Numbered from the stretch's first letter, positions 17,456 through 34,184 are shown. The stretch: 62,801 bases of DNA from an uncultured bacterium (GCA_903880655.1 CAIRQE010000106.1:1-62801); one strand, 5' to 3'. A program made the numbers and translations. The notes: generated from the sequence alone by a model not told the origin.

Positions 17456-17459
17456 GGAA

Positions 17460-17484
17460 GGGGGCGTTATGCCCCCTCTTTTTT
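17460..17484 (+). terminator. rho-independent terminator after the giant virion protein gene
   Basis: GGGGGC-GTTAT-GCCCCC followed by TCTTTTTT. Lies between convergent stops at 17455 (+) and 17483 (-). Confidence 0.7.
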
Positions 17485-20284
17485 ACTGGATTTTTGATGC
17501 GTCTAATACTAATGCTAATACTGCAGGGCTGTCTTGTGGCGTACCTGCTGACATCCGTACTCTGGATATATCTAAGAGAATCCCCATTTTAGATAAGTCG
17601 TCTGTCATACAACTATACGATATCTGCTTCTTAGCACACCATGATTTTAACACCGAAGATATAATATAGGCTCGTTGTACATCAGGCTCCCTCCTAACGA
17701 TCAGTGCGCCGCGAGGTGATTCTATCGGCAGTGTCATCATACCCTCTATAGTCGGTGCTTTTTGGTTTATAACCAGTTGATTCTGTATATGCTCAGATAA
17801 GAATGTACCTAAGAACGCACTCGATCTTTCAAGAGAAGACTCAGCAGGTATCTGTGCTTTCCTATTTAACTGCTTAACCATACGATCAAACACAGGTTTA
17901 ACTGGGATATCTACTAACCCTAAATCGTTTGCTACCTTACCGCCCCATAGAGCTGTTGCACATAATGCTGAGTAGTATCTGTCAGGCTGTCCAAGCCCTG
18001 CCGCCTTATCAAACTCTATTTGTATAAGCTCCAAGTCTTTAATGCAGTCATCATAGTTATCTAGTACATACTGCATCATTACCTCGCCAGCATGTCCGTA
18101 GTTTTTTATCATGTCTCTAGAGAATATCTGGTCAGTCTCTTGCTTAGTCATACTATCACTACGGACTACCTCTATCTCCAACACACGCAACAGCTCGCCT
18201 TCTGGATCAGCTTTATCTGTCTGTAATACTTCGTGCAAACTGTTGTTCCCAGAGGTGATGCAAGGTAGAGACCATGTTGTGTTGTTCACTCGCTCTGAGT
18301 TAGCTGATGCTTGTAGCCTGTTTTTACCACGCCCATTAGTAACACCAAATGCCAAGTTACTTACTTCGGTAGGGTGTAAATTAGTAAGCTCATCCATACA
18401 CAGAATCATATTCTGCACTACACCCATACGATGGTACTTAGACTGCACTGTATCATCTCTCACCAGCATTGCTAAATCAGGATGTCCCCAAACACTATTA
18501 GCTACCTTTTGAACAGTCGATTTACCTACCCCAGAAGATGCATTAGTTAAGTGCACAATAGCACCGCCTAAAGAGAAAAACTTAAACATCGGTGCGCCTA
18601 AGCTAAGGAACAAAGCAAAAGCCCTTACCTCATTACCTTCCAATGCATAGCAATTCGCTACCTTTTTCCACTCGTCTAAGGTCCCTGCCTTAGAGTATAT
18701 GTGCACTATGTTTTCAGTAGCCGCCGATGGAGGGCTATACTTAGGAGGAGCGTCTTTTGTGAGCTCCCGTGTACCTATAACAAAAGATCTGTCACTATCA
18801 TTCCAACCAAATTGTACTCTCACTAATTCCGCCTTAGATGTATTCTGTAAATGTTTAGTCCATATCACCAAATAGCTCATTAGATTTCTCATCTGATTGC
18901 TACCTGCGGCGACACCACGCTGTGATAACATATCTCTGCATTTATCCCCTGCTGTTACCGTAGCAAGAGGTGCTGTAAAATCACTAACCCCATCATGGGG
19001 TCTAATAAGTCTCATGTGGATAACTTCCCCTGCATCAGGATCAGTACGTCTACCCACTACATATAAGTCGTTCTCATACACGAGGTTCTTATCATCTTCT
19101 CCTTCCTCTACATCGTCTAGCGGCTTCTTGACATATACACCACCTTTCGGTCCTCTGAAGTAAGGGAAAGGGTATTCTGGTATCTCTATATCAACCACAC
19201 CCAAGTCAGGGCTAACCGCAGTTACTATATTCTCAGTAGGTGTAGCTTCTAGTATCTCTTTACCTAACACTATAGGGGTGCGTATCTTACCCCAAAAAGA
19301 ACACCCATCACATAAAGACTCATTAAAAGGTCTAAACGTCTTGCATAGTTGTGGAGCTTCACATTTCGTAGCTTTTATCTCTGTTTCAACAGGATTGTAT
19401 TCAGCATGTTTATTAGACAGGTTGTGTATAGCTGTCTCCCTATCAGTGCAGTATTGAGCAATAGATAGTCCAGCTCTCCAATGAGGTTCCGTTATGTCAT
19501 CAGGGTTATTAAATATGTAGGCTAAATGTGCACATCCTTTGCCCTCTAAACTCTTCTCCATGATGCGTGAAAACTTGTAAACCGTATTGCCAAGTAATGC
19601 TCTTGTAGTGTCATTTAACCCATTACCTGATATAGACCCTGAGCCTGACAACTCCATCATAGCTACAGGAGATAGATCACCTGTACTTAGTAACTGCTTA
19701 AACATCTCTACTGGGTTTGGCGGGCTCAGCTTTAAGAGTGTTACATCAGCTTCCAGACCACCTTTGAAATTAATAGTGCTGGGGAGTCTTAAAATTCTAA
19801 CTGCATCTGTCGTTATCCCTAAATCCTTTACACTAAACTCCGAGGACATAATACGTTCTTTAAGGGAGTTAGCTAGAGGCTTCCAAATGTCATAACCTAC
19901 AGCCTCAGTAAAAGTCCAGTAGATGTGCAACCCATAGCCAGACGATACGATAGTGGGAGCAGGGAGCTTTAACGCCGCTGCAAAATTCTTTAAAGCAACT
20001 AACCCATCATGTTGAGTAGGGTAATCTGTATTCTTACCTATATCTAAATCAATAAATAAGTTTTTAAATTCTTTAGCGTTCTTTGTGTTTCTACTTTTGT
20101 TGTTGTTATATGTTGAAGGAGAAAAATACGCATCTCTCCCTTGCGGTGGTTGCTCTTCAGCCCACTTATCTATAGCCTCTATGGAGTCAAAAAATACCTG
20201 CCACGCTTTACCTTTTTGCATAGCAGCTACACAGTACACCCCCTGAGACGGTAAAACAGTGTTTAAAAAATCTAGCCTATTCAT
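17483..20284 (-). CDS. bifunctional primase-polymerase (AEP) / SF3 D5-like helicase
   Basis: 933 aa. FIDLDIGK (DxD) and SSGYGLHIYW primase-polymerase motifs. Walker A NASSGVGKST and Walker B ILCMDELT in the C-terminal half. Confidence 0.8.
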   Translation of the reverse strand: MNRLDFLNTVLPSQGVYCVAAMQKGKAWQVFFDSIEAIDKWAEEQPPQGRDAYFSPSTYNNNKSRNTKNAKEFKNLFIDLDIGKNTDYPTQHDGLVALKNFAAALKLPAPTIVSSGYGLHIYWTFTEAVGYDIWKPLANSLKERIMSSEFSVKDLGITTDAVRILRLPSTINFKGGLEADVTLLKLSPPNPVEMFKQLLSTGDLSPVAMMELSGSGSISGNGLNDTTRALLGNTVYKFSRIMEKSLEGKGCAHLAYIFNNPDDITEPHWRAGLSIAQYCTDRETAIHNLSNKHAEYNPVETEIKATKCEAPQLCKTFRPFNESLCDGCSFWGKIRTPIVLGKEILEATPTENIVTAVSPDLGVVDIEIPEYPFPYFRGPKGGVYVKKPLDDVEEGEDDKNLVYENDLYVVGRRTDPDAGEVIHMRLIRPHDGVSDFTAPLATVTAGDKCRDMLSQRGVAAGSNQMRNLMSYLVIWTKHLQNTSKAELVRVQFGWNDSDRSFVIGTRELTKDAPPKYSPPSAATENIVHIYSKAGTLDEWKKVANCYALEGNEVRAFALFLSLGAPMFKFFSLGGAIVHLTNASSGVGKSTVQKVANSVWGHPDLAMLVRDDTVQSKYHRMGVVQNMILCMDELTNLHPTEVSNLAFGVTNGRGKNRLQASANSERVNNTTWSLPCITSGNNSLHEVLQTDKADPEGELLRVLEIEVVRSDSMTKQETDQIFSRDMIKNYGHAGEVMMQYVLDNYDDCIKDLELIQIEFDKAAGLGQPDRYYSALCATALWGGKVANDLGLVDIPVKPVFDRMVKQLNRKAQIPAESSLERSSAFLGTFLSEHIQNQLVINQKAPTIEGMMTLPIESPRGALIVRREPDVQRAYIISSVLKSWCAKKQISYSCMTDDLSKMGILLDISRVRMSAGTPQDSPAVLALVLDASKIQ

Positions 20285-20306
20285 GGCACATACCTGAATT
20301 TACGGG

Positions 20307-20334
20307 GAAAAAAAGGGGCGGTATTATCCGCCCC
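20307..20334 (-). terminator. rho-independent terminator (minus strand)
   Basis: Minus strand reads GGGGCGG-ATAATA-CCGCCCC followed by TTTTTTTT, 20 nt after the stop at 20354. Confidence 0.7.
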
Positions 20335-20353
20335 GTAAGCACAGGAGAGTAGG

Positions 20354-21229
20354 TTAATCAGCCCATTCAGCTAATACCGATTCCATAGAGGCTGGTGCCG
20401 CCGCTGGTTTCTTTTCCCTAACAGTAGGTTCTACTGTCGCTTCAGGTGTAGGAGCAGGTGCGGGTTTCTGTACAAATGTAAGTTCTTCAGGCTCTGAAGA
20501 CCTCGCCGCAGGTGGTTGGAAAGACATAGTAACTGCAAGTTTAGCTTCTGGGGATTCCCCATGTTTCTTAATAGCTTCTAGCTCTGGGATATCTAAAGCA
20601 CGTACCGCTCTAAATACCATCTTAGGTGTAGCAGAGTCAGTATCAAAGCGCATCTCAGTAACTACGTCTGTGATGTTAAGCCCATTTGCTCCTAGCAATT
20701 TAGCATACTGGAATAAAGGCATTTTGTTGTTCTCACCTTTACCGAATAGAGAAGTAGCCGCTAAAGACAGTTCATACAACTCACCACTAACTGCATCATT
20801 CTCTAACAAAACTGCCAGTCTATGCGTATATCGGCAAGCTCTACCATTACCTTGTTTTGCTGAACCTTGAATGTTCTGTGGGCATGTTGCACAGCTCACA
20901 GACTGTGGTGCTTCACTGCTTCTATCAGGGCGTTCCCCGTCATTACTCCAGCATACAGGTGCAGTAACTACACCCTCTTGATACGTTGCCGAGTAATACT
21001 GTCTTGATGTTTTAGGAGCCGCCGCCGCAATGATGATGTTCATTGCGCGATCTTCATTCTTAGCAATCTCTTGCCCACCCACTACCATACGGAAGATATT
21101 ACCCTTGATAGAGATACGTCTAGAGCTAGTACCCCCCATAAGAGCTTTAGTAGTTGCACTTAACTCTGTGTTTCTGAAGTGTGCTGGAACTGCACCGCCG
21201 TTTTTAAAAATACTTAATTCGTTGCTCAT
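20354..21229 (-). CDS. hypothetical replication-module protein with Cys cluster; possible gp32-like ssDNA-binding protein
   Basis: 291 aa. CWSNDG..C..CATCPQ..C cluster, Pro/Ala-rich linker and a short acidic C-terminal tail (LAEWAD). Position between helicase and recombination-type genes. Function is inferred only. Confidence 0.3.
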   Translation of the reverse strand: MSNELSIFKNGGAVPAHFRNTELSATTKALMGGTSSRRISIKGNIFRMVVGGQEIAKNEDRAMNIIIAAAAPKTSRQYYSATYQEGVVTAPVCWSNDGERPDRSSEAPQSVSCATCPQNIQGSAKQGNGRACRYTHRLAVLLENDAVSGELYELSLAATSLFGKGENNKMPLFQYAKLLGANGLNITDVVTEMRFDTDSATPKMVFRAVRALDIPELEAIKKHGESPEAKLAVTMSFQPPAARSSEPEELTFVQKPAPAPTPEATVEPTVREKKPAAAPASMESVLAEWAD

Positions 21230-21445
21230 TTAAATTTCCTCGGTTGGTTGTTTGGTTATTGTAGTTCTTTTGGTTAATAGGTCTCTGACATTGTCTTCTC
21301 TGAAGAGGACACTCTTTCCTCCCATGAAGTATGTTTCAAGGGCACCTGACTGTCTTAATCGGTGTAGGGAACTGCGAGAGAGGCCTAGTATCTTACTAAC
21401 TTCTTTTCCCGTCAAGTAAACTTGATCGGTTTCTTCATCAATCAT
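21230..21445 (-). CDS. small HTH DNA-binding protein (Xis/AlpA/MerR-like)
   Basis: 71 aa. LTGKEVSKILGLSRSSLHRLRQSG fits a helix-turn-helix. Confidence 0.5.
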   Translation of the reverse strand: MIDEETDQVYLTGKEVSKILGLSRSSLHRLRQSGALETYFMGGKSVLFREDNVRDLLTKRTTITKQPTEEI

Positions 21446-21446
21446 A

Positions 21447-21830
21447 TTATTTTCTCCTTACAGTAATGCTATAACGGCTATCTACGTTCATACCGGGAGG
21501 CATGAGGTTTGGGTTTTCTTCTAAAAAGTGTTTCATATTGGTTTGGTGTACTCGTTGCTCCATTAAATCTAATGCGTCGTGATCTTTAATAAACTGTTTC
21601 ATACTGCCCCAATCCGATGTCCAGTATCTAGTCTTAATGGTTTTAAACACACTACCTGCAGGTGTACGTAATCCTTCAGCTCCAGTCTCTTTACACATTT
21701 CTAATAAGGCTTGTGTAACTTGCTCTTGTTGCTCCTTTATCCTTCCATCTGCTTCATCAAACTCTCTTTGGAGCTTTACTCGTGCATCGCGCATTTTTAT
21801 GTATATTGTTACTAGTTGTTCTGCGTTCAT
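21447..21830 (-). CDS. hypothetical protein (127 aa)
   Basis: ORF packed tightly in the minus-strand operon. Confidence 0.5.
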   Translation of the reverse strand: MNAEQLVTIYIKMRDARVKLQREFDEADGRIKEQQEQVTQALLEMCKETGAEGLRTPAGSVFKTIKTRYWTSDWGSMKQFIKDHDALDLMEQRVHQTNMKHFLEENPNLMPPGMNVDSRYSITVRRK

Positions 21831-21839
21831 TTCTGTCTC

Positions 21840-22127
21840 CTATTCTACAGGTAAGCCTATATCAGTCCCCGGAAGGGGTATAAGCATCTCAGGTGTTGCA
21901 CTACCAGCATCTGGAATTATGAATGTTGCTGGTGCGTTTGGTCCTACGATAGCTGTCATGCCACCTACATCCATAACTTGTGTAACCCCTTCACCGCCCA
22001 TGTCAGCTATAGCATACCCATTAGCTGTAGGTATAACCGCTTTCATAGCTTGCCCCGGAGTTAGTATAAGAGCCGCCGCTATAGATACTGTTGGTGCTAA
22101 CAACATTAAAAACATAATACTTTTCAT
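21840..22127 (-). CDS. small exported protein with N-terminal signal peptide
   Basis: 95 aa. MKSIMFLMLLAPTVSIAAALILTPGQA looks like a Sec signal sequence. Confidence 0.45.
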   Translation of the reverse strand: MKSIMFLMLLAPTVSIAAALILTPGQAMKAVIPTANGYAIADMGGEGVTQVMDVGGMTAIVGPNAPATFIIPDAGSATPEMLIPLPGTDIGLPVE

Positions 22128-22136
22128 AGTTTTCTC

Positions 22137-22490
22137 CTAGTGTAGAATTTGGGGAGATTCTAAAAAGGCACGTATCTCTTTAGCGAGTACGCCTCTCTCA
22201 TGTTTTTCACAAGTCCTAATTAGTAATTCAATCGCTTCAAATGCAGATGTTCTATAAATCGTATCCAAGAAATTCATAAAATACTCTCCGTTTGGTTCAT
22301 CCTTCGCCACCATAAGACTTACGCCTAATTTGCTTTCTACTATTTTTACAAGGACATGCACCCCATCGTCATCCTCACCATCTTCCTCCCCCTCAAACTC
22401 CTCATCTGTAGCAATCTCAGCTTCAATCTCAGCCCTCTCATCTCTTTCTAGTTCTTCTATGAACTCACTAATTATGTCTTCTCTAATCAT
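22137..22490 (-). CDS. highly acidic protein (117 aa)
   Basis: The N-terminal half is mostly D/E (EELERDERAEIEAEIATDEEFEGEEDGEDDDG). ATGA-type overlap with the SNF2 gene. Confidence 0.5.
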   Translation of the reverse strand: MIREDIISEFIEELERDERAEIEAEIATDEEFEGEEDGEDDDGVHVLVKIVESKLGVSLMVAKDEPNGEYFMNFLDTIYRTSAFEAIELLIRTCEKHERGVLAKEIRAFLESPQILH

Positions 22491-24043
22491 TGTATTACCT
22501 CTTTAAATAAATCTAACAGCTTCGTTTGTGAAGCACCTTTGTTCTCAAGTACGTGAAGTACCTTCTTCTCTACTGGACTACCTATTAAATGCACAACATT
22601 GCACTTATTAACCTGCCCTGCTCTGTGTATGCGAGCGTTAGCTTGCATATATGTTTCTAATGATAAGGTCATACCCCACCAGATAATTGTATTAGCCGCA
22701 TGTAAAGTAACACCATGCGCTGCCGCTTGCGGCTGGATGACCAGTATGCGAGGGTCTTTGCTAGTTTGAAACTGATTGAATAGCTCCGCCCTCTTACCCA
22801 CACTTATGCCACCATGTACTATATCTACAGTGTGCCCCTCACCCTGTAATACTTTCTGAACTAACTCGATAGTATGTCTAAACATAACGAACACGATTAC
22901 CTTATGTGGTGTCTCGTCTATAATACTTAGTAGCTCATTGGATCGGTGCTTAACATCAAACTCTATTATCTCTCCTGTATCTGAATACACAGCCCCTGCT
23001 GATAACTGCAGTAACTTATTTAGAGCCACCGCTGCGTTCGCCGCTGATATCTCCTCACCTCCTGCTTGCATAAGCATCTCTTTCTTGAGCAACTTATAAT
23101 ACTTCTCCTGCTGTGCAGATAATGGTACGTCTCTAGTCTGATAAACTAACTCTGGTAAGTCTAAGCACTCTTCCTTTGTGTAACGTATAGCAGGTTGTAG
23201 GATGCTATGTACTATCTCTTCAGCTTCAGGTCGGTTCTTAAATACAAACATAGACTGGCGTATCTGTACTAAGTCTCTAAAAGCATTAAACGCTCTAGGT
23301 ACACTTTTAGGGTTCATTATCTTAGCCAACCCATACGCATCTACTGGAGACTGTGCCGCAGGTGTACCTGTCAGCAACCACAACCATGTATCATCCTTAA
23401 TTAATTTATTCAGTGTCTTCCATCTCTTAGTGGCTACGTTCTTAAGGTGTGTTGCCTCATCTACTACAATCAGGTCAAACCCACCTGCATCTATCTCTTT
23501 CTCTACTATCTCTACACCATCGTAGTTAATGATGACTATCTCAGCACTGCCGCTTATAATCGCGGCTCGCTTCTCACGACTCCCATGTGCTATCTCTACA
23601 GACCTGTGCATAGTTGTCCTAAATAAATCCCTACGCCATGCGGCGTCCATAATAGATAGTGGGCAGATTACTAGCATACGTCTTACCACGCCTAGATTCA
23701 TTAGATAGTCTGCCGCCCATATTACAGAGTTAGTTTTACCTGTACCCATCTCAGATAAACAGAAAGCCTTTTTGTTCAGAGTTAAGAACTCTGCCGTTAC
23801 CCGTTGATGCTCAAACGGTTTGTACATGCCTGTCCATTTATATTGAGTTCGGATAGGTGATGGCACGTTTGGTATCTTCAGGTTGTTTAGGATATATGTT
23901 TCACCCAAACCAAAATTCACCCAGACTTCATCCTCAGCTACCTGCTTACTTCTTTCTATTACCGACAGAATACTGTCGGGGTCGTCCGTTTTTATCGACA
24001 GTATCTTGTCGTTTATTACATCTATTTGCATTGCATACCTCAT
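22487..24043 (-). CDS. SNF2/Rad54-family helicase
   Basis: 518 aa. LSEMGTGKT (motif I), VVDEATHLKN (motif II), QANARIHRAGQ (motif VI). Confidence 0.85.
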   Translation of the reverse strand: MRYAMQIDVINDKILSIKTDDPDSILSVIERSKQVAEDEVWVNFGLGETYILNNLKIPNVPSPIRTQYKWTGMYKPFEHQRVTAEFLTLNKKAFCLSEMGTGKTNSVIWAADYLMNLGVVRRMLVICPLSIMDAAWRRDLFRTTMHRSVEIAHGSREKRAAIISGSAEIVIINYDGVEIVEKEIDAGGFDLIVVDEATHLKNVATKRWKTLNKLIKDDTWLWLLTGTPAAQSPVDAYGLAKIMNPKSVPRAFNAFRDLVQIRQSMFVFKNRPEAEEIVHSILQPAIRYTKEECLDLPELVYQTRDVPLSAQQEKYYKLLKKEMLMQAGGEEISAANAAVALNKLLQLSAGAVYSDTGEIIEFDVKHRSNELLSIIDETPHKVIVFVMFRHTIELVQKVLQGEGHTVDIVHGGISVGKRAELFNQFQTSKDPRILVIQPQAAAHGVTLHAANTIIWWGMTLSLETYMQANARIHRAGQVNKCNVVHLIGSPVEKKVLHVLENKGASQTKLLDLFKEVIQ

Positions 24044-24077
24044 TCAGCTCCTTAAGGGAGCGACTCGTTTCTTCTAT

Positions 24078-24284
24078 TTAGTCGTCTAGTATATCAAATA
24101 ACTGCGCCTTGTTCAAGTTTCGATCACTATACCACCCACGTATTTTATTCTGGCATAGTTTTCGTTCTGCTGCTCTAAGGCGTAATGCCATTCCACATAA
24201 CGCGTCTAAATGCCTATCAATTAAAGTATCGGGTAAACCAGCATCTGCCGCCATTACCCGCACAGATTTTACAGATATTTTCAT
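24078..24284 (-). CDS. hypothetical protein (68 aa)
   Basis: ORF in operon register. Overlaps the upstream gene stop. Confidence 0.45.
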   Translation of the reverse strand: MKISVKSVRVMAADAGLPDTLIDRHLDALCGMALRLRAAERKLCQNKIRGWYSDRNLNKAQLFDILDD

Positions 24285-24562
24285 TTTTTCTTTTTAGGCT
24301 CATTGATCTTTACAGTGTGGTCAGAGTTGCGGGTAAAAGATCGGTTTTGTGATGGTGTTCTAAGTCTCAAGTTAGCTTTCCCATTACCTGCCTTTGTACC
24401 ATGTATGTGGTCTATGTCCTTACCCGTTCTGTCTATACCCGCTTTGTCTGCCGCCCGTCTCGCACGTTGCCTTTCCATCCTAGCCTCATGAGCTCCGGGA
24501 CGCTTCTTCTCCAGCTCTACTTCACGTGCTACGTTTCTATCAGCTTTGTTCTTGTATGCCAT
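24281..24562 (-). CDS. small basic HNH-motif protein (93 aa)
   Basis: GKDIDHIHG..NGKANLRLRTPSQNRS resembles an HNH core. Strong GAGGAG RBS 8 nt upstream of the ATG. Confidence 0.5.
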   Translation of the reverse strand: MAYKNKADRNVAREVELEKKRPGAHEARMERQRARRAADKAGIDRTGKDIDHIHGTKAGNGKANLRLRTPSQNRSFTRNSDHTVKINEPKKKK

Positions 24563-24707
24563 CTTTTAACTCCTCTGCTTTCTTTAAGTCATCTAACATT
24601 ATCTGGTCTATTAATCGCTCTTCATGTGCATCTTTTAACAGCCTATTTATATTAGGCAACAACTCTTTTAATAACTCAGCTCTACTTATCGCCATCATAC
24701 CCCCCAT
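24540..24707 (-). CDS. small ORF whose N-terminus copies the major capsid protein N-terminus
   Basis: MGGMMAISRAELLKELLPNINRLLKD.. compared with MCP MAAISRAQLLKELLPGLNALFG. AGGTG lies 9 nt before the ATG at 24707 (alternative starts at 24698 and 24695). Fills the gap between the Cas4-like and HNH-motif genes. Confidence 0.4.
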   Translation of the reverse strand: MGGMMAISRAELLKELLPNINRLLKDAHEERLIDQIMLDDLKKAEELKDGIQEQS

Positions 24708-25374
24708 TATGTACACACCTAACTGCTTGACACCACTGCCGACAAAGCCCATTAGGTTTAGTATTGAAGATACCTGTTTCGTATGCTACTTCACGTTGCA
24801 TTAAAACTTCTTTCAGGTTATCAAATATCTCAAAGCGCCTGTCATACGTGTACTCAGCTTTCACTACTTCTTGGGACACTACAAATAACAGCATACCTTT
24901 AATAGTTTTAACTGCTGGGTACTTTAAAAATACAGCCGCCGCTAGTAGTGCAAGTTGCTTGGTATCCGCATACTTGGCAGATTTACCTGTCTTGTAATCC
25001 ACAATATACGCCTTACCTGCCGCTTCGTCTACAATTACTAAGTCAGCAATCCCACGCCAGTATCTGTCCTTCGCCTCAAAATCACATAGGCTATACTCGC
25101 CACCTTCTAACTTAATGCCCAGTTCAAGCTCACAGAACTTATCGCCCTTGATATTATTTAATGTATCAAGATAGCCCTTAATATAGTTGTACTTCTCAGG
25201 CAACGGGGTGCCTGATCCTATATAGTGTTCTGCTGCTAAATGGACATCACGCCCATAAATAGTAGCTTCTGTGTCCGTATGTGGAACATATTTCTCTACC
25301 TTATGTGCGCTATATTGTTTTGGGCATGTAATAAATTGGCTTAATGAACTGTATGAGAAACTAGGTGCTTTCAT
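24682..25374 (-). CDS. PD-(D/E)XK Cas4/RecB-like exonuclease with Cys cluster
   Basis: 230 aa. N-terminal CPKQY, GIADLVIVDE..YIVDYKTGK core, C-terminal CRQWCQAVRC. Confidence 0.8.
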   Translation of the reverse strand: MKAPSFSYSSLSQFITCPKQYSAHKVEKYVPHTDTEATIYGRDVHLAAEHYIGSGTPLPEKYNYIKGYLDTLNNIKGDKFCELELGIKLEGGEYSLCDFEAKDRYWRGIADLVIVDEAAGKAYIVDYKTGKSAKYADTKQLALLAAAVFLKYPAVKTIKGMLLFVVSQEVVKAEYTYDRRFEIFDNLKEVLMQREVAYETGIFNTKPNGLCRQWCQAVRCVHNGGYDGDK

Positions 25375-25565
25375 TCGTCCTCTTCCTCACCCCAACCCAT
25401 AAGCTGACTAACCATGTCGCACATGCTACTCAAGCAGTCAGGACAAAACGCTACTGGCAAGATACCAAAGTATTCTGTAATCCCACCTTCATCATCAGTA
25501 AAATCTGTGCTACATACATCACACTCATTCTCACCACTATCATCAAATCCTAATCCACTTTTCAT
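25371..25565 (-). CDS. small acidic Cys-rich (zinc-ribbon-like) protein
   Basis: 64 aa. CDVC...CPDC pairs. ATGA overlap with the downstream gene. Confidence 0.45.
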   Translation of the reverse strand: MKSGLGFDDSGENECDVCSTDFTDDEGGITEYFGILPVAFCPDCLSSMCDMVSQLMGWGEEEDE

Positions 25566-25697
25566 CTTTGATGCCTTATCTCAATATCGTTATAGGGGTA
25601 TTCTCTGTTACACTCACAACATACTTGTATCTTCAATCCATAGTAGCGCTTGAAGTGTCTACACACGTGCGGTGGGCAAAACCACCCTTTAATTCTT

Positions 25698-26081
25698 TTA
25701 AACACCTCTTTTTACCTCAGCGAGTTTAGCCATGTAGTGCCTAGCTTTGTCCGCATCATCAGGGGCGTTTTCTTTTTTACCATCACGCATTGCATATTTA
25801 ATAACACACCCTTTAAGATAGCCTATAAATTCCTCTTTACTTAAAGCAACTTCCATAAGCTCCCAAGGTTGAATACCCATTTTTTTATAGTGATCTCCTC
25901 CTACTTGCATTGCATCAGCTGGAAGTTTCTTAGGTTCATGAGAGTAGTGGCTTAGGTTATTAATAGGGTCAGCTGGAACTTCTTTAGGTTTCCATACAGG
26001 TTTTACATTTGATTCTTCGTTTATCATATTAGGGTAGCTCCATAAATTTATCGGGGGGAATACAAGGTCAGCCCATTTCAC
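25698..26081 (-). CDS. DUF3310-like phage protein
   Basis: GGDHYKKMGIQPWELME..KGCVIKYAMR matches my recollection of the DUF3310 family. GTG start at 26081 or ATG at 26027. Confidence 0.45.
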   Translation of the reverse strand: MKWADLVFPPINLWSYPNMINEESNVKPVWKPKEVPADPINNLSHYSHEPKKLPADAMQVGGDHYKKMGIQPWELMEVALSKEEFIGYLKGCVIKYAMRDGKKENAPDDADKARHYMAKLAEVKRGV

Positions 26082-26281
26082 TCATTCCCTACCTCACGTT
26101 CATAGTCATCACGACACTGCTCATCACACCACCGTCTACCATCAACTACATCATCGTCACAGAACCAACATCTATTAGACTTGTTCTGGTATATATCCAG
26201 TGGCTTGCCACGTTGTAATGCTATTTGTTTCTCCAGTATTAACTGGGCTTGTTCGTTGGCTTTATCTGCAATGTCAGCCAT
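26078..26281 (-). CDS. TraR/DksA-like C4 zinc-finger protein
   Basis: 67 aa. CWFCDDDVVDGRRWCDEQC follows an acidic or helical N-terminus. Confidence 0.4.
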   Translation of the reverse strand: MADIADKANEQAQLILEKQIALQRGKPLDIYQNKSNRCWFCDDDVVDGRRWCDEQCRDDYEREVGNE

Positions 26282-26350
26282 AGTTCTCTCTCGCTCTAAA
26301 AGGATTAGGTTTTTTCTTTCTATTTTTGTTACTTGTTTTGTTCGCCATCA

Positions 26351-28171
26351 CTAACACTCTGCTAAACTTTTACCATACTTGCCTTCAGCATCTAGGGGTA
26401 GCCCAGCCATCCAAAGGGGTGTTTTAGTCATCTCTTCTATCAGAAAATCTAAAGCCTCTTGAGCCTCATCTTCTGGAGCTAGGATATATAAAGCATCATG
26501 AATAGTCAGTACAATAGGATACCGTTTATTCACTCTTACCATAGCTTCTGACATAATGCATCGGGCTGTACCCTGCACTAGATTGTTCGTTAATTTACCG
26601 CCGTATAGTCTATCATAACCATTTCTAAGTTTATATTTATATCCTCGTTCTCCTGTCTCTTTATTAACTTCATGAGCCAACTCAGGGTACTGCATGTACA
26701 TGCCTGAAGGAAACTTAATACCTTTCGTACCCTCAACAGCGAATATGTCGTTATTGCCAAAAGTAAAATTACTGTTAAGTGCCATAGCCTTAATAGCATC
26801 ACCACACTTACTCCACAGACCAGTAACACCTGTGTAAGTCGATCTATATAAGTCCACAATCTCTTGTGCATTGGGTAAGTCCTTCCCTGACCCCGCCTTC
26901 ACAGCCGCTCGTAGCTTTGCCGCCCCAACCCCAAAGATTAAACTTAACTGCGATGTCTTACCAATAAACCTCTGATCTTTAGTTACCTCATCATAAGGCA
27001 CATCAAACACCTTACTAGCAAAGTCCTTATATAAATCACCCCCTTCACCTAGTAACTTCAAAGCACTCATCTCACCTGCCACCCACATACCCACACGTAG
27101 CTCGATGTTTGATAAGTCAGCACCTACTATTACCTGCCCTTGTGGGGCTACGATGGCTTCTTTTAATATCGACCCTCTAGGTAAGTTCTGAAAGTTTACC
27201 TTCTGCCCACTACCTGCAGCCCATCTACCTGTCGCCGCCCCATAGTATTTTAGAGGGATAGGGAGGCTACCCATTCTATTAGCTATATTCATAAACCGAA
27301 TTGTTCGAGTCTCTTCTAGTGTACTCTTAACCCCCAACCTAGCTAGTGCTAGAGCTTGTACTGTAGGATTAGAATGTTCTAGTAGGGCTTTAAACCCATC
27401 ATCAGTTTTAGCAAATGCGTAGGTGTTCTCCCCTGTAGTAGGTGATACCTTCATAGGTACTTCTACCCCATGATCCTCTAACAACTTAGCAAACTTAGGG
27501 TTACTCATGAGCTCAGACTTATCTGCCGCTACAGTCGATAGCAACCTTTCTTTCTCATCCAAAACGTAGTCAAGATGGGCTTGTAGTAACAGCATATCTA
27601 CTTCCAGCTTGGCATCTGCACCCATCCTAATGGTCATGTCTATTAGGCTTAGCTCTGTCGAGTTAAAGTGGGGTGTTAGTTTCTGTAGTAACTTATAAGT
27701 TAATTCTGTGTCGTTAATACAATACTCGCCGTACCTAGCTAACTCCTCCTTAGTAAAGTCTTTACGGTATTTACCCATAGCATCAACAACCTCAGTACCC
27801 TTAACCCCCAGCTCATAATGCTCTGCCAGCTTAGCTAAGCTACCTCCTACCGATATACCATGTACAGCACGTGCCATAGATAGAGTGTCCATATACCTAG
27901 CTGGAAAGATACCAAAGTAAAGGCTAAGGATAGATGCATCAAAGAAACAGTTGTGTGCTACTAAAGTAATGTCGTTCCAATTATATCTATTAAGTATATT
28001 AGTTATCTGTAATCGACTACCTGTATGCCATGTGGTAGGGGCATCACCTAACTTAATAGATACTCCAATAACTTCAAACTCATCTCCATTTATATATTCT
28101 TCTGTGGTCAGCTTTGATAGGCTGTAGGTTTTAGAATAGAACGACTCTATATCTAATGTCATCAACTGCAT
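26351..28171 (-). CDS. family A DNA polymerase with 3'-5' exonuclease domain
   Basis: 606 aa. Exo motifs LDIESFY, HNCFFDASIL, YCINDTELTY. Pol motifs GADLSNIELRV (A), RFIGKTSQLSLIFGVG (B), LTIHDALYI (C). Confidence 0.9.
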   Translation of the reverse strand: MQLMTLDIESFYSKTYSLSKLTTEEYINGDEFEVIGVSIKLGDAPTTWHTGSRLQITNILNRYNWNDITLVAHNCFFDASILSLYFGIFPARYMDTLSMARAVHGISVGGSLAKLAEHYELGVKGTEVVDAMGKYRKDFTKEELARYGEYCINDTELTYKLLQKLTPHFNSTELSLIDMTIRMGADAKLEVDMLLLQAHLDYVLDEKERLLSTVAADKSELMSNPKFAKLLEDHGVEVPMKVSPTTGENTYAFAKTDDGFKALLEHSNPTVQALALARLGVKSTLEETRTIRFMNIANRMGSLPIPLKYYGAATGRWAAGSGQKVNFQNLPRGSILKEAIVAPQGQVIVGADLSNIELRVGMWVAGEMSALKLLGEGGDLYKDFASKVFDVPYDEVTKDQRFIGKTSQLSLIFGVGAAKLRAAVKAGSGKDLPNAQEIVDLYRSTYTGVTGLWSKCGDAIKAMALNSNFTFGNNDIFAVEGTKGIKFPSGMYMQYPELAHEVNKETGERGYKYKLRNGYDRLYGGKLTNNLVQGTARCIMSEAMVRVNKRYPIVLTIHDALYILAPEDEAQEALDFLIEEMTKTPLWMAGLPLDAEGKYGKSLAEC

Positions 28172-28692
28172 TTGTATGTCTCCCCTCGTACGATTAAGCT
28201 AATACACATTTGAGATACATTAAACTCTCTAGCTAGAGCAGTTTGCACTTCTCCTATACGATACCTAGTTCTAATGTCATCTATCTGAAGCCTGTTTAAC
28301 TTAGAGTTTACGTGCTCTTCCCCTTTTGGTTGAACTCTCCTACCCTTTTTATAAGCATCTAATTGGTTATCCCTGTAAGACCCTAAAAAGAAATGGTCTG
28401 GGTTACAGCACTTCCTGTTATCACACTTATGTAGTACATGCGTTACTGCCCTATGTGATTTTGGGGCTGACATACTATCTACTAACCCTTTAAGATATGC
28501 TGCTACTCTATGAGCAGTGTAAAGCTTGCCATGCCACGCCACAGTACCGTACCCTATATTATTTAAACTCCCTTGCCATTCCCAACACCCTGCTCCTTGT
28601 GTATCTACCCGCCCCCAAAATGATTCTGCTGTTTGCTTAACCATTCTGATCCATCGTGAACTACAGGAAAGTAAACATACAAAGTAGTCCAA
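28162..28692 (-). CDS. HNH homing endonuclease (free-standing)
   Basis: HVLHKCDNRKCCNPDHFFLGSYRDNQ is an HNH core, with a C-terminal HTH-like tail. Probable start MVKQTAESFWG at 28644. The 3' end overlaps the polymerase start by 10 nt. Confidence 0.7.
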   Translation of the reverse strand: MDYFVCLLSCSSRWIRMVKQTAESFWGRVDTQGAGCWEWQGSLNNIGYGTVAWHGKLYTAHRVAAYLKGLVDSMSAPKSHRAVTHVLHKCDNRKCCNPDHFFLGSYRDNQLDAYKKGRRVQPKGEEHVNSKLNRLQIDDIRTRYRIGEVQTALAREFNVSQMCISLIVRGETYKCS

Positions 28693-28847
28693 AGAGTAAA
28701 CGGTAATCCTTCTGGCATACCTAAACCATCATAAAATTCAATATCTAATTCTTCTTCGGTTAAAGTGCAGACATAATTGTTAATATCCTTATCTTCATTG
28801 TCTATCATTCTTACCAGTATTTCTTTACGCCAAGTTGTATAACTCAT
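28605..28847 (-). CDS. hypothetical protein (80 aa)
   Basis: ORF in operon register. The 3' end overlaps the HNH gene start. Confidence 0.4.
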   Translation of the reverse strand: MSYTTWRKEILVRMIDNEDKDINNYVCTLTEEELDIEFYDGLGMPEGLPFTLWTTLYVYFPVVHDGSEWLSKQQNHFGGG

Positions 28848-29086
28848 ATTTCATCTCCAATGCCGTGTATAGATTCTATACGTCTAGCAAAATCAATAGG
28901 ATTTCCGCACCACATAGTATTTAAATCTTCAAAACTCAAAGGCTCACGTTTTGGCGGTGCTGTGTAGAGTGGTATCACTTCAAATATTTCCCTGTGGTAC
29001 AAAAAGGGTGTTAAATCAGATACTTGTGTTCTATATCCTGTTTCCTTATTAACTATTATCCATGCTTCAGGTTGCTGTTCACTCAT
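28844..29086 (-). CDS. hypothetical protein with IPLYTAPPKREPLS motif
   Basis: 80 aa. Shares a 33-bp identical DNA block with the gene at 29527-29910. Confidence 0.5.
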   Translation of the reverse strand: MSEQQPEAWIIVNKETGYRTQVSDLTPFLYHREIFEVIPLYTAPPKREPLSFEDLNTMWCGNPIDFARRIESIHGIGDEI

Positions 29087-29421
29087 TTCTCTTCTCCTTT
29101 ATTTGTCCAACCTAAAACTCTAAATAGTTTCTTAGCAGCTACATCAGCAGTAAATAAACTCTCTTCATTTGACTCTTTATAAAATCTAAAGCTTATCCCG
29201 TAAGTTTTTCGTTCGGCATCGTATCTTTCTTTAATACCGTTATGTATCTCTATACCAGCTGCATCAGCAAACTCTCTCAATGCCCATATAACTGTATGAA
29301 GCTCACGTTGTTTAAATCCTTGTAGTCCTAGTGTTTTTAGCTCTTTACTCATCGCATCCACACATTTAGTAACATTACCAACAAAATAAAAACACCGTTC
29401 AACGGTAGTAAATGTAAACAT
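29083..29421 (-). CDS. hypothetical protein (112 aa; may start at 29352, giving 89 aa)
   Basis: An internal ATG at 29352 forms an ATGA overlap with the alternative upstream ORF 29349-29534. Confidence 0.5.
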   Translation of the reverse strand: MFTFTTVERCFYFVGNVTKCVDAMSKELKTLGLQGFKQRELHTVIWALREFADAAGIEIHNGIKERYDAERKTYGISFRFYKESNEESLFTADVAAKKLFRVLGWTNKGEEK

Positions 29422-29534
29422 AGGTTTCCTAATTTATCGTATCTTTTATCGTAACAAAACAATACTCCTAGTCCAAAAACAAAATTAAGTGTCAAACTTG
29501 TAAAGAAAAGTTTTTCTATCAAGACATCACTCAT
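29349..29534 (-). CDS. possible small two-TM membrane protein (61 aa)
   Basis: MSDVLIEKLFFTSLTLNFVFGLGVLFCY..LLPLNGVFILLVMLLNVW. Start and stop both overlap neighbouring genes, filling an otherwise 105-nt gap. Confidence 0.3.
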   Translation of the reverse strand: MSDVLIEKLFFTSLTLNFVFGLGVLFCYDKRYDKLGNLCLHLLPLNGVFILLVMLLNVWMR

Positions 29535-29910
29535 TCCCCACCTCCAACACCGTGTGCTTTTCTGCATCTCTAAACCCCCACATATACTCTTGTTTATCCA
29601 TTGCAAATGCGTGTTTGCTGTACATTATTTCTAGCTTTTCATCACTCAAAGGCTCACGTTTTGGCGGTGCTGTGTATAGAGGTATCCAAGATTTATCATA
29701 AAGCCAGTCTTTCATTTCAAAGCTAGTTAATAAATCTTGCACTTTCCCTTCAACCATTTGACACCAAGCCACAGGCTTTTGCTCTTGCTCTTGCTCTTGC
29801 TCAGGTTGGGCTAGGAGGTATTTAATATCAGAACCAAAACCAAAATCGTTTTCAACATCAGTTTCTAAAAATGCTAATACTTTTTTCAACAACTCTCTTT
29901 CTCTACTCAT
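29527..29910 (-). CDS. hypothetical protein, paralogue carrying IPLYTAPPKREPLS
   Basis: Start taken at MSRERELL (TGATG overlap with the upstream stop). Contains a (EQ)3 run and the shared PLYTAPP block. Confidence 0.5.
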   Translation of the reverse strand: MSRERELLKKVLAFLETDVENDFGFGSDIKYLLAQPEQEQEQEQKPVAWCQMVEGKVQDLLTSFEMKDWLYDKSWIPLYTAPPKREPLSDEKLEIMYSKHAFAMDKQEYMWGFRDAEKHTVLEVGNE

Positions 29911-30107
29911 CACACACCCCACTCAATAAAAAAGTCACATATCTCGTCATCATCTATTTCTTTCTTTACGTCCATGTGCCACACGTAGTTCTGTGTGTCT
30001 ATCTCAATGGTCAGGTATCTCTGACATAGGTTCTTCTGGTTGCAGTTAGTACCCATACATCTGGCACTGGTTGTTGGCAGTGGATACTGCATTTGGTGTA
30101 GTTTCAT
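29910..30107 (-). CDS. hypothetical Cys-containing protein (65 aa)
   Basis: ORF in operon register. Confidence 0.45.
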   Translation of the reverse strand: MKLHQMQYPLPTTSARCMGTNCNQKNLCQRYLTIEIDTQNYVWHMDVKKEIDDDEICDFFIEWGV

Positions 30108-30253
30108 TTTTTATCCCCCCAAAGGTTAAACAGCTCTCCGAATAATGTTATAGGTAAAAACACAGCTATAAAGATACTGCTTACTACGAACACCACCCCT
30201 ACTAACAACCAAAAGCACAGCCCTTCTAACTTACTTGTACCTTTCGCATACAT
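30104..30253 (-). CDS. possible single-TM micro-protein (49 aa)
   Basis: [49 protein letters not shown]. The stop forms ATGA with the next start. Below the ORF-track size cut-off. Confidence 0.3.
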   Translation of the reverse strand: MYAKGTSKLEGLCFWLLVGVVFVVSSIFIAVFLPITLFGELFNLWGDKK

Positions 30254-30554
30254 TTTCCTCACCATTTGACATTCTCCTCAAGTGCTCAACTAATTTATCT
30301 ACGTTCGTAGCGTTTATGCAGATGCCAGCCCCACCACTCTGAATGATTCTATCTAGCTCACGTTGTTGGATTGCCGTAGGCTTTAAGTCGTTTGCCTTAC
30401 ACTCAATAGCTAAGAACTTACCCTGCACACAACATATTATATCTGGTATAGCTGACCTGCCATACCCATTAGCCGCTGGAAAGAAGTGCCATACATCTGC
30501 ATCAATTAGTGCCTTCTTAACTTTATCTTTAACCTCACCTTCTTTAGTCCTCAT
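30231..30554 (-). CDS. VRR-NUC domain nuclease (PD-(D/E)XK; Holliday-junction-resolvase-like)
   Basis: 107 aa. [23 protein letters not shown] core. Confidence 0.75.
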
Positions 30555-31236
30555 CTACAAGCTCCTTACTACTTCTGTATTCTAAAAACGCTAAGTCATC
30601 TGCTATTTTTTCTTCTGCTATTTTTGTAGCACTCCAAATGCGGGACATGTCAACTTCGTCCTCCCCCAAACAAACACGAACTCTATTAAATCTAGAAGGG
30701 TGTCTTAGCTTCCTAAGAGCCTTAGCTTCTATCTGTCTTACACGTTCTCTTGTTACTCCTATTACGTCTCCCACCTGCTCTAATGATAGAGGGTCTCCTT
30801 CAAACCCAAACCTTAACTTTAATACATTAGATTCTCTAGGGGTTAGTTTTGTGTCTAAGGTAAAGTCTATAACCTCTTTTAATTGGTCGTTCTCAAGATT
30901 TAGTATAGGGTCAGAGATATTCTCAAGTCGTGTTAGCTCATGGTAAGAATACTCAAGTTCTCGTGTATTAGACTCTATAGGGGTAAGCTGCTCTAACGAC
31001 CACACTTCATCAAGACTTTTACCAAAGTAAGAGCATATCTTCTGTGCTGTTTCTTTTACAATACCTTTTGGGTTTAAGGGAGATTCAGACATATTGATAT
31101 ACCCACTTAACACAGAATATGAAATACCCGCCTCCTTAGCCGCCACATACCCAGCTACTCCTTTAGCCTCAATCAATTTAAGTATATTGTTATTCCTTAC
31201 TCGTACCGTTACTCGGTAATCTTTATGCTCATTCAT
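30544..31236 (-). CDS. sigma-70 region-4-containing transcription factor with N-terminal HTH
   Basis: [47 protein letters not shown] is a canonical region 4. The N-terminal [21 protein letters not shown] is XRE-like. No clear region 2 seen. Confidence 0.6.
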
Positions 31237-31477
31237 CTGTAAATTCTCCTACATCTATATAGTCCCCTATACGTGGTGGGGATTCGCCTGTCGCCTTAAG
31301 CCAGTAGTCTAGCATCTCGATGCCTTCTAACCACCCTGCTGGTGGGGCTTTAGTTTCTTGTTTAACACAACTCAGTGTACCCATAGCTGTATCAGTCTTT
31401 CTAGCTATATCAGCTAGAGTGTGTCCTCTCTTGTACAACACTTTTAACATCAACGCGAAGTCAAGCTGTCTAACCAT
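31229..31477 (-). CDS. small HTH protein (82 aa)
   Basis: [25 protein letters not shown] fits an HTH. Confidence 0.45.
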
Positions 31478-32145: not shown

Positions 32146-32237
32146 TTTTTAATGAACACCCTTTACTACATCTACCAATATAATTAATACTTGTCCTACG
32201 ATTACAACTATTCCCAAGCTATACCAAACTATCTTGT

Positions 32238-34099: not shown

Positions 34100-34184
34100 T
34101 TTAATTCTCCAATATACAGCCCCTGTAAAGGCAGGGGCGAAGCCTTATATGTAGTACGCTGGTACTACGCCTGATAACTGTTCC

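What the first reader, a model, noticed from the sequence alone, without database searches (positions are those of the whole stretch)
24540..24707. Small early ORF copies the N-terminal arm of the major capsid protein at peptide level but not at DNA level
The gap between the Cas4-like nuclease and the small HNH-motif gene holds an ORF reading M(GG)MMAISRAELLKELLPNINRLLKD... The major capsid protein (49837) begins MAAISRAQLLKELLPGLNALFG. That is 14 of 18 consecutive identical residues, both anchored at the N-terminus, with no gaps. Codon by codon the two stretches differ at most synonymous sites (ata/att, agt/tca, aga/cgc, tta/cta, ttg/cta, and so on), giving about half nucleotide identity by my hand count. 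This is therefore not a recent DNA duplication; the peptide itself appears to be conserved. In HK97-fold capsids with separate scaffolds, the N-arm is a contact surface for scaffold and assembly factors. Capsid proteins are also known triggers of some abortive-infection sensors. An early-expressed N-arm peptide could be an assembly timer, a scaffold or chaperone competitor, or a decoy. All of these are speculative.
Basis: seen in the sequence. Interest (0 to 1): 0.65.

Follow-up and report, generated by a model that had tools for sequence, protein, structure and literature searches.

The report
Small gene copying the capsid N-arm
A 52-residue accessory gene in the replication block of an uncultured freshwater phage descends from a partial copy of the phage's own major capsid gene. 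Only the capsid protein's N-terminal arm survives in it, and similar "N-arm only" genes turn out to be widespread in this abundant aquatic phage group, so they probably act as molecular mimics of the capsid arm.

Summary
The minus-strand ORF 24540..24698 (MMAISRAELLKELLPNINRLL...) matches the N-terminus of the major capsid protein (MCP, 49837..) at 14/18 and 15/21 residues. Nucleotide identity is only 33/63. The match scores z = 13.5 against shuffles.

The ORF is intact and in the same position in all close relatives that carry it. Most relatives read MAISRAELLKELLPGLNELFGLEY, 22 of 24 identical to the MCP.

Between the copy and the MCP gene, synonymous sites are saturated. Among copies, dN/dS over the arm is 0.03-0.1, so the peptide itself is under selection.

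The gene is an accessory cassette:
- 47 of 65 related loci lack it.
- 11 carry an alternative cassette (type B) without the arm.
- One carries both.

A profile search found at least four more small-protein families that start with the same ~25-residue arm. All lie in the replication module. One of them still carries decayed MCP residues 1-58 and 96-132, which shows the origin was a partial MCP gene copy.

Function is inferred, not shown. I favour competitive mimicry of the MCP N-arm. The partner is unresolved: a host factor that recognises unassembled MCP, or the phage scaffold. The window's own copy keeps only the first 15 arm residues.

The parts
24540..24698 (-). Small ORF, 52 aa (MMAISRAELLKELLPNINRLLKDAHEERLIDQIMLDDLKKAEELKDGIQEQS). 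The second ATG (24695) gives MAISR..., the same start as most MCPs.
   Evidence: An identical protein is on record (P0001). Syntenic intact homologues in L001-L016 and L022. G-rich Shine-Dalgarno-like run (GGGGGG here, GGGAGG in relatives) 1-4 nt upstream. AlphaFold2 predicts one helix, residues 6-51, pLDDT 85.
24636..24698 (-). Segment copying the MCP N-arm (codons 1-21). Only codons 1-15 remain close to the MCP in this window.
   Evidence: 15/21 aa and 33/63 nt identical to 49837..49899. z = 13.5 against shuffles. hhalign 97%.
24543..24611 (-). C-terminal helix module C1 (IDQIMLDDLKKAEELKDGIQEQS). It is shared with type B cassettes and is exchangeable with modules C2 and C3.
   Evidence: Alignments; tblastn.
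24682..25374 (-). Upstream flank: Cas4-like PD-(D/E)XK nuclease. Its last 4-5 codons (YDGDK*) are supplied by the cassette.
   Evidence: Pfam PDDEXK_1, E 4.6e-15. Relatives without the cassette end ...NGRYKQED* or ...NGNYKEG*.
24281..24562 (-). Downstream flank: 93-aa HNH-like protein. It is present whether or not the cassette is there.
   Evidence: Weak HNH_3 match. PHROG 4590/4578. Present in 47 loci that lack the cassette.
49837..50751 (+). Major capsid protein (Phage_capsid_4 / Mu gpT-like). The copied N-arm is encoded by 49837..49911.
   Evidence: Pfam. PHROG 371. More than 8000 homologues. The arm MA(A)ISRAQLLKELLPGLNALFGLEY is nearly invariant.
47721..48620 (+). Putative scaffolding protein. 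It is one candidate partner of the N-arm, by inference only.
   Evidence: Position between the portal and MCP genes, acidic N-terminus, basic C-terminus (...SEVAIAKRLGVPLEVYAKYKVKEQQLNG). Only a PHROG of unknown function matches.

Best explanation
Shown:
- The ORF is a real, translatable accessory gene.
- It descends from a partial copy of the major capsid gene placed in the replication module.
- In this lineage only the first 15-25 codons (the capsid N-arm) survive, joined to a short helical tail.
- Selection has kept the arm peptide while all synonymous sites turned over.

Inferred:
- The product is a free amphipathic helix that acts by molecular mimicry. It is made from the replication operon, and I infer (untested) that this is before or alongside bulk capsid synthesis.
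- It occupies the site on whatever partner normally receives the N-arm of unassembled capsid protein.
- Because the cassette is patchy, mosaic and fast-evolving, I favour a conflict role: a decoy or antagonist for a host factor that recognises the invariant arm (about half of this explanation's weight).
- The other half goes to binding the phage's own assembly partner, most likely the basic C-terminal end of the putative scaffold.
- The acidic residue at position 8, where the MCP has an invariant Gln, may tune that binding.
For: Reality and coding:
- Intact, syntenic ORFs in more than 20 loci, with a Shine-Dalgarno-like site and overlaps with both neighbours.
- Within the arm, L001 vs L022b has 6 synonymous and 1 nonsynonymous difference, and L001 vs L008 has 6.5 and 3.5 (dN/dS 0.03-0.1).
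- Against the MCP gene, pS is about 0.96-1.0 while pN is 0.12-0.15 in the A1 variants L001, L003 and L022b (0.20 in L008).

Origin:
- In loci L175 and L176 the same Cas4/HNH junction holds MCP residues 1-58 (48% identity).
- In another frame it holds MCP profile positions 96-132 (hmmsearch iE 1e-4).

The arm is the part that is kept:
- At least five families of small proteins share it but have different tails: Fam1 with 25 clusters, two Fam2 tail clusters of 4 each, Fam3 with 4, plus Fam4 and Fam5.
- All lie next to the Cas4-like, SNF2 or DNA polymerase genes.

Systematic difference from the MCP: position 8 is E or D in 32 of 40 small proteins, but Q in 119 of 120 MCPs.

Accessory and conflict-like behaviour:
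- Census of related loci: A 5, B 11, A+B 1, none 47.
- Modules are shuffled.
- Against the nearest variant the small ORF has 0 synonymous and 4 nonsynonymous changes, while the neighbouring HNH-like gene has 9 and 3.

Precedent for the arm as a binding element: in phage 80alpha the scaffold's C-terminal helix binds the capsid protein's N-arm helix, and SaPI1 CpmB competes at that site (PMC5644958).
Against: - No binding, expression timing or phenotype is known.
- The window's own copy has lost arm similarity after residue 15 (2 of 12 identities beyond P15).
- Type B cassettes keep the gene without the arm (hhalign probability 3%), so the arm is not needed for the gene to persist.
- Most relatives do without the gene altogether.
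- No host sensor of an N-arm is known, and the host is unknown.
- The MCP structure model failed (pLDDT 39), so the arm's own conformation is not established.
- The RNA evidence is weak: short contigs in runs labelled RNA, which may contain DNA.
Confidence: 0.45

Rival explanations
1. Decaying remnant. The ORF is the last readable piece of a partial MCP gene copy and has no function of its own. It persists because it carries the Cas4-like gene's stop codon, the ribosome-binding site of the HNH-like gene and translational coupling between the two.
For: - Fam2 loci show such a copy in decay, with frame-shifted pieces.
- The cassette is absent in 47 of 65 loci.
- The window copy is the most eroded.
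- It has 0 synonymous and 4 nonsynonymous changes against its nearest variant.
Against: - Synonymous saturation with 21/22 arm residues kept in A1, and dN/dS 0.03-0.1 among A1 variants.
- No frame disruption in any copy.
- The arm is retained in at least five families while the rest of the MCP sequence is lost or replaced.
- Relatives without the cassette couple the Cas4-like and HNH-like genes directly, so the cassette is not needed for that.
Confidence: 0.2
2. Address tag. The arm works like the capsid targeting sequence of phage T4 internal proteins. It docks small payload proteins onto the scaffold or shell so that they are packed into the procapsid and delivered to the next host.
For: - One N-terminal peptide is shared by several unrelated tails, which looks like tag-plus-payload.
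- The loci are hypervariable, like the T4 internal-protein genes (that comparison is my own knowledge).
Against: - No other protein in the window carries the arm, including the giant 2382-aa protein, whose relatives' homologue carries SLT and LPD38 domains.
- No arm-bearing non-MCP protein above about 160 aa was found.
- No prohead protease is recognisable in the head module.
- The genes lie in the replication block, not with the late genes.
- In this family the tails are tiny.
Confidence: 0.1
3. The protein is functional, but its function lies in the shared C-terminal helix. The arm similarity is historical baggage.
For: - Type A and type B cassettes share the C1, C2 and C3 modules and differ in the N module.
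- Type B has no arm.
- The C module is repeated two or three times in P0143 and P0147.
Against: - The arm is more conserved than the tail across families.
- Fam2 to Fam5 have the arm but unrelated tails.
- Purifying selection acts on the arm itself.
Confidence: 0.15
4. The similarity is due to chance or composition, or the element works at the nucleic-acid level (an RNA or DNA element, or a recombination substrate).
For: Both sequences are Leu/Lys/Glu-rich helices.
Against: - z = 13.5 and 20.7 against shuffles.
- hhalign probability 97%.
- Nucleotide identity is at the level of random synonymous codon choice, so there is no DNA or RNA homology to act on.
- Both messages are sense for the peptide, so they are not complementary.
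Confidence: 0.02

Closest known systems
SaPI1 CpmB versus the phage 80alpha scaffolding protein (PMC5644958)
   Same: A small helical protein carries the same short interaction peptide as a capsid-assembly protein, and so competes at the scaffold/N-arm interface. In that system the capsid N-arm helix is one side of the interface.
   Different: CpmB copies the scaffold's C-terminus and is encoded by a parasite of the phage. Here the copied peptide is the capsid's own N-arm and the gene is in the same genome. Binding has not been shown here.
Phage T4 capsid targeting sequence on internal proteins IPI, IPII, IPIII and Alt (my own knowledge)
   Same: A short N-terminal peptide is shared by unrelated small accessory proteins encoded in hypervariable loci.
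   Different: The T4 tag is not a copy of the capsid protein's arm and is removed by the prohead protease. No protease is recognisable here, and packaging is untested.
Anti-defence proteins that compete with a structural trigger, for example DSAD1 against the tail tube protein on DSR2 (PMC11087589, abstract only)
   Same: A small phage protein would block a host sensor of a structural protein. In DSAD1's case the block is by competition for the binding site (my own knowledge; the abstract only says DSAD1 counteracts DSR2).
   Different: DSAD1 is not derived from the trigger. Here the candidate decoy is a fragment of the trigger itself. No sensor of this arm is known.
Accessory regions of phage genomes: variable small genes between conserved core genes (bioRxiv 10.1101/2023.04.06.535777)
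   Same: Conserved flanks (Cas4-like and HNH-like genes) with presence/absence, alternative cassettes and tandem copies between close relatives.
   Different: That is a positional category only. It says nothing about mechanism.

Membership tests
Major capsid protein family (Phage_capsid_4 / Mu gpT-like), as a paralogue or fragment | Sequence homology to the MCP | tested here: met
   hhalign 97% over MCP columns 1-29. BLASTP E 8e-8. Fam2 relatives extend to MCP residues 1-58 and 96-132.
Major capsid protein family (Phage_capsid_4 / Mu gpT-like), as a paralogue or fragment | Possession of the HK97-fold body (E-loop, P and A domains) | tested here: not met
   The protein is 52 aa and predicted as a single helix. 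There is no similarity beyond MCP residue 29 and no Pfam hit. It is a derivative of the family, not a capsid protein.
T4-type capsid-targeting-sequence cargo proteins | The same N-terminal peptide on several unrelated proteins | tested here: met
   At least five tail families share the arm. In this window, however, only one such gene exists.
T4-type capsid-targeting-sequence cargo proteins | A prohead protease that removes the tag | tested here: not met
   No protease family matches any of the head-module proteins scanned, from the portal gene (43840) to 49824 just upstream of the MCP gene. A novel protease is not excluded.
T4-type capsid-targeting-sequence cargo proteins | Presence of the protein inside procapsids or virions | not testable with these tools
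   This needs virion proteomics. The phage is uncultured (lake metagenomes).
Scaffold-interface competitors (CpmB-like) | Carries the interaction peptide of one partner of the capsid/scaffold interface | tested here: inconclusive
   The protein carries the capsid N-arm peptide. That the arm is the scaffold-binding element in this phage is inferred from 80alpha, not shown. The MCP model failed.
Scaffold-interface competitors (CpmB-like) | Encoded by a satellite that parasitises the phage | tested here: not met
   The gene lies inside the phage's own replication operon, in the same position in full-length relatives.
Accessory-region (candidate counter-defence) genes | Variable gene content between conserved flanks in related genomes | tested here: met
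   Census A 5, B 11, A+B 1, none 47, other insertion 1. Module shuffling.
Accessory-region (candidate counter-defence) genes | Demonstrated inhibition of a defence system | not testable with these tools
   The host and its defence systems are unknown.
Cassette mobilised by a homing endonuclease | An endonuclease gene that comes and goes together with the cassette | tested here: not met
   The 93-aa HNH-like gene is present in 47 loci without the cassette. A different HNH/AP2-like ORF occupies the junction in L069 only.

The most novel reading that the evidence does not exclude
The near-invariant N-arm of the capsid protein may be a weak point that host immunity (or a competing genetic element) reads on unassembled capsid subunits. 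If so, this abundant group of aquatic phages answers with decoys made from the trigger itself. These would be arm-only fragments with an added acidic residue, expressed from the replication operon ahead of the capsid. That would be a new class of counter-measure: a self-derived trigger decoy.
Probability: 0.2. Interest if true: 0.9.

Novelty: new variant of a known kind. Interest (0 to 1): 0.65.

Why it matters
- If the arm-only proteins act by mimicry, they point to the partner of the capsid N-arm in a very abundant but uncultured group of freshwater and marine podoviruses (more than 8000 capsid homologues in public data).
- They would be a natural example of a phage turning a fragment of its own capsid gene into a small regulator or decoy.
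- The peptide is only 25 residues, so the idea is directly testable by binding and co-expression assays without culturing the host.
- It also gives a simple sequence signature (MAISRA[ED]LLKELLPGLN...) for finding such genes.

Tried and rejected
- **DNA search of cultured phages:** no match to the locus. Protein searches with arm-bearing queries found only MCP N-termini or nothing. The Cas4-like gene has only about 32% relatives among cultured phages, in Rhizobium phages. No cultured model exists.
- **Covariation of the small ORF with its own MCP arm:** not possible. The arm is nearly invariant in the 120 best MCP homologues.
- **MCP structure:** the AlphaFold2 model was unusable (pLDDT 39), so no fold search was run. 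There is no sequence relative in the PDB, with a single sequence or with a profile.
- **Recent DNA donor:** none for this family among 76 distinct MCP 5' ends (maximum 55-70% nt identity, against an MCP-MCP median of 81%). Other families reach 77-85%.
- **More-than-random codon avoidance:** pS near 1 looked striking, but 3 of 15 identical codons is within expectation for random synonymous choice (my estimate). I dropped the idea.
- **Type B cassette as a mimic of another protein:** no significant match anywhere in the window or in the large database beyond its own family.
- **MCP C-terminal fragment ('HFVR') upstream of the Fam2 ORF:** seen by blastx at E = 1.9, not supported by the profile. 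Rejected.
- **Read-through into an intron or insertion within the MCP gene:** rejected. All contexts are in the replication module, far from the MCP gene.
- **Promoter and terminator scan:** nothing informative.
- **Pfam and PHROG on all tails:** nothing.

Full report
**1. The observation**

- On the minus strand, 24540..24698 encodes MMAISRAELLKELLPNINRLLKDAHEERLIDQIMLDDLKKAEELKDGIQEQS.
- The ORF overlaps the last 17 nt of a Cas4-like PD-(D/E)XK nuclease gene (24682..25374; Pfam PDDEXK_1, E 4.6e-15).
- It also overlaps the first 23 nt of a 93-aa HNH-like gene (24281..24562; weak HNH_3 match, PHROG 4590/4578).
- The major capsid protein (MCP, 49837..50751; Phage_capsid_4 / Mu gpT-like) starts MAAISRAQLLKELLPGLNALFG.
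- Aligned from residue 1 without gaps, the two share 14/18 and 15/21 residues.
- They share only 33/63 nucleotides. Just 3 of the 15 identical residues use the same codon, one of them the forced ATG.
- The pair stands far above chance:
  - E = 1.2e-5 against the six-frame window, with no other hit reaching E 0.1. In a more permissive search the next-best hit was E = 1.4.
  - Ungapped score 71, against 24.5 +/- 3.4 in shuffles, z = 13.5.
  - Profile-profile probability 97% over 29 columns.

**2. It is a gene, and relatives make the resemblance stronger**

- A search of 5.8 billion proteins found 17 homologues of 56-77 aa.
- Most read MAISRAELLKELLPGLNELFGLEY, which is 22 of 24 identical to the MCP arm (E = 1.6e-10, z = 20.7).
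- All of their contigs that were fetched show the same order: DNA polymerase ... Cas4-like, small ORF, HNH-like, 68-aa ORF, SNF2 helicase.
- No copy is frame-disrupted.
- A Shine-Dalgarno-like site (GGGAGG, GGGGGG in the window) sits 1-4 nt before the paired ATGs. The second ATG gives MAISR, the commonest MCP start.
- The phage is uncultured and comes from lake metagenomes.
- Its capsid relatives include Planktothrix phage Pag-Yong1, Synechococcus phage MinM2 and Pelagibacter phages HTVC023P and HTVC027P, at 62-67% identity. Their replication modules differ, and none of them has the small ORF.
- Short contigs covering the ORF occur in two runs labelled as RNA. This is weak evidence, because DNA carry-over is possible.

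**3. Selection acts on the peptide**

- Between the arm segment of the small ORFs and the MCP gene, the proportion of synonymous differences is 0.83-1.08. That is saturation.
- The nonsynonymous proportion is 0.12-0.15 in the A1 variants L001, L003 and L022b (0.20 in L008) and 0.38 in the window.
- Among A1 variants the arm shows 6 synonymous against 1 nonsynonymous difference (L001 vs L022b), and 6.5 against 3.5 (L001 vs L008). That is dN/dS 0.03-0.1.
- No sampled MCP 5' end is a recent donor. Maximum nucleotide identity is 55-70% for this family, while MCP genes are 81% identical to each other at the median over the same stretch.

**4. It is a dispensable, mosaic cassette**

- Among 65 informative IMG/VR loci found through the Cas4-like gene:
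  - 47 have the nuclease gene followed by the next gene within 5-30 nt;
  - 5 carry the arm-type cassette (A);
  - 11 carry an alternative cassette, type B (MMA[IT]SRKAGKSIMDEIMWKYYDSRTDSYDYKRME...);
  - 1 carries B and A in tandem;
  - 1 carries an unrelated HNH/AP2-like ORF at the same junction.
- Type B shares only the first six residues with the MCP (hhalign probability 3%). It matches nothing else in the window or in the database.
- N modules (A1, A2, B) combine freely with three C-terminal helix modules.
- The window carries subtype A2. It keeps MAISRAELLKELLP, then departs (NINRLLKDAHE against GLNALFGLEYD).
- Against its nearest variant the small ORF has 0 synonymous and 4 nonsynonymous changes. 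The adjoining HNH-like gene has 9 and 3 (Fisher p about 0.02 by my own arithmetic).
- AlphaFold2 predicts a single long helix, residues 6-51, pLDDT 85.

**5. The wider picture and the origin**

- A profile of the family was searched against 1.84 billion representative proteins. It gave 245 hits at E <= 1e-3.
- After setting aside in-frame and frame-shifted MCP fragments (70 of 145 tails), several distinct small-protein families remain. All begin with the same ~25-residue arm:

| Family | Tail | Clusters |
|---|---|---|
| Fam1 | this family | 25 |
| Fam2 | two basic-tail clusters (...R.RE.IGGN.YVHG... and ...RYDRNKQIHG...) | 4 + 4 |
| Fam3 | ...WAVY...DELDAYKKFM | 4 |
| Fam4 | ...IVEVDF... | short tails |
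| Fam5 | 107-116 aa proteins | 2 |
| singles | up to about 158 aa | n/a |

- None of the tails has a Pfam or PHROG match.
- Every context recovered lies in the replication module, not beside the MCP gene:
  - Fam2: between the Cas4-like and HNH-like homologues, the same junction as here, although the Cas4-like protein is only 36-38% identical;
  - Fam3: upstream of the DNA polymerase gene;
  - Fam4: overlapping the start of the nuclease gene;
  - Fam5: overlapping the start of the SNF2 helicase gene.
- In Fam2 loci the first ORF aligns with MCP residues 1-58 or 1-65 (48% identity, with most of the identity in the arm).
- A second piece downstream, in another frame, matches MCP profile positions 96-132, predicted helical in the low-confidence MCP model and so possibly the spine helix (iE 1e-4 in L175 and L176).
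- So the locus once received at least the 5' 40% of an MCP gene. Different lineages have kept different amounts, and the arm is the piece that always survives.
- The arm DNA of Fam2 to Fam4 is 77-85% identical to some MCP 5' ends. Whether there was one old capture or several is open.
- One systematic difference stands out. Position 8 is Glu or Asp in 32 of 40 small proteins, but Gln in 119 of 120 MCPs. Position 19 is Glu or Asp in 23 of 40, and Ala in 118 of 120 near MCPs. A more distant MCP clade has Glu there.

**6. Mechanism**

Shown:
- a translatable gene;
- derivation from the MCP gene;
- purifying selection on the arm;
- accessory, mosaic behaviour;
- placement in the replication operon.

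Inferred:
- The protein works as a mimic of the N-arm of unassembled MCP.
- In HK97-fold phages with separate scaffolds the N-arm helix is a docking surface. In 80alpha the scaffold's C-terminal helix-and-hook packs against it, and SaPI1 CpmB competes there (PMC5644958).
- The putative scaffold here (47721..48620) ends in a basic, helix-turn-helix-like stretch. An arm with extra acidic residues could bind it well. This step is inference only.
- The patchy distribution, cassette swapping, tandem copies and excess of amino-acid changes fit a conflict gene better than an assembly factor. The capsid genes of phages carrying A1 and A2 cassettes appear to fall in one 99%-identical cluster (P0019; not checked contig by contig).
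- I therefore split the mimicry explanation (0.45 in total) about evenly:
  - a decoy or antagonist of a host factor that reads the invariant arm;
  - a competitor at the phage's own scaffold or capsid interface.

Rivals:
- a functionless remnant (0.2);
- function carried by the shared C-terminal helix only (0.15);
- a T4-like address tag for packaged cargo (0.1). This one is weakened because no other protein in the window has the arm, no protease is recognisable, and no large arm-bearing protein exists;
- chance or a nucleic-acid role (0.02).

**7. Comparison with known systems, and novelty**

- It works like the CpmB/scaffold case (one shared interaction peptide), like T4 capsid-targeting tags (a shared N-terminal peptide on variable small proteins), or like competitors of structural triggers (DSAD1). 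It is a member of none of these (see the membership table).
- It is a derivative of the MCP family without the fold.
- I found no description of arm-only capsid fragments in phage replication modules.
- I rate it a new variant of a known kind (peptide mimicry by a truncated paralogue).
- Interest is 0.65: the sequence evidence is strong and general, but the function is open, and the window's own copy is the most eroded example.

Noticed in passing
window 47072..47470 (+): A GroES-like co-chaperonin gene sits inside the head module, between the portal and scaffold genes (PHROG 3188, E 3.3e-11). This recalls T4 gp31, which is needed to fold its capsid protein.
   Followed up: partly
L069:3681-4225: In one relative the same Cas4/HNH-like junction holds a 543-nt insertion encoding an HNH/AP2-like protein that looks like a homing endonuclease, instead of the small ORF. 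The junction is therefore a general insertion hot spot.
   Followed up: partly
L022:3677-4004 (same contig as L187): One relative carries a type B and a type A cassette in tandem as two separate genes, each with its own ribosome-binding site.
   Followed up: yes
L175 and L176, about 180-390 nt downstream of the start of the arm ORF: A second small ORF carries a decayed copy of MCP profile positions 96-132 (...YDDLSARYTKHLAEAL...), possibly the spine helix, in a different frame from the arm ORF.
   Followed up: yes
proteins P0143, P0147, P0144, P0146 (relatives; contexts not fetched): Some Fam1 members repeat the C-terminal helix module (IDQIIHNEA[IV]KQKELE) two or three times, or add a second tail (...GETFRNDVKIAQIKATDLKKKEEGDEHRSISKSS).
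   Followed up: no
protein P0002 (relative of the window's subtype): The arm carries an in-frame four-residue duplication (ELLKELLKELLP).
   Followed up: no
protein P0163 (context not fetched); compare window 48613..49074: A 108-aa ORF joins MCP residues 1-35 to the C-terminal half of a homologue of the 153-aa head-module protein. It may be a real rearrangement or an assembly chimera.
   Followed up: no
proteins P0277 and L198:3242-3619: In two cases the arm peptide lies at the C-terminal end of a roughly 105-125-aa ORF rather than at the N-terminus.
   Followed up: no
window 24682..24698 (-) compared with L023, L033: The cassette supplies the last codons and the stop of the Cas4-like gene (…YDGDK*, 230 aa). 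Relatives without the cassette end …YKQED* or …YKEG* (226 aa).
   Followed up: yes
L001:5696-6097 and L001:2553-3245 (window equivalents not located): Close relatives encode a 133-aa protein with an RNA polymerase alpha C-terminal domain match (PF03118) just upstream of the DNA polymerase gene. They also encode a 230-aa protein with sigma-70 region 4.
   Followed up: no
window 1..62801: The window looks like a whole phage genome in three blocks: + 104..17455, including a 2382-aa ORF at 10307..17455; - 17483..41113, replication; + 41654..61761, packaging and head.
   Followed up: no
window 22000..30000: Terminator-like hairpins are over-represented (12 found, 3.8 +/- 2.2 expected). Ten of the 12 lie on the + strand, antisense to the genes.
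   Followed up: no
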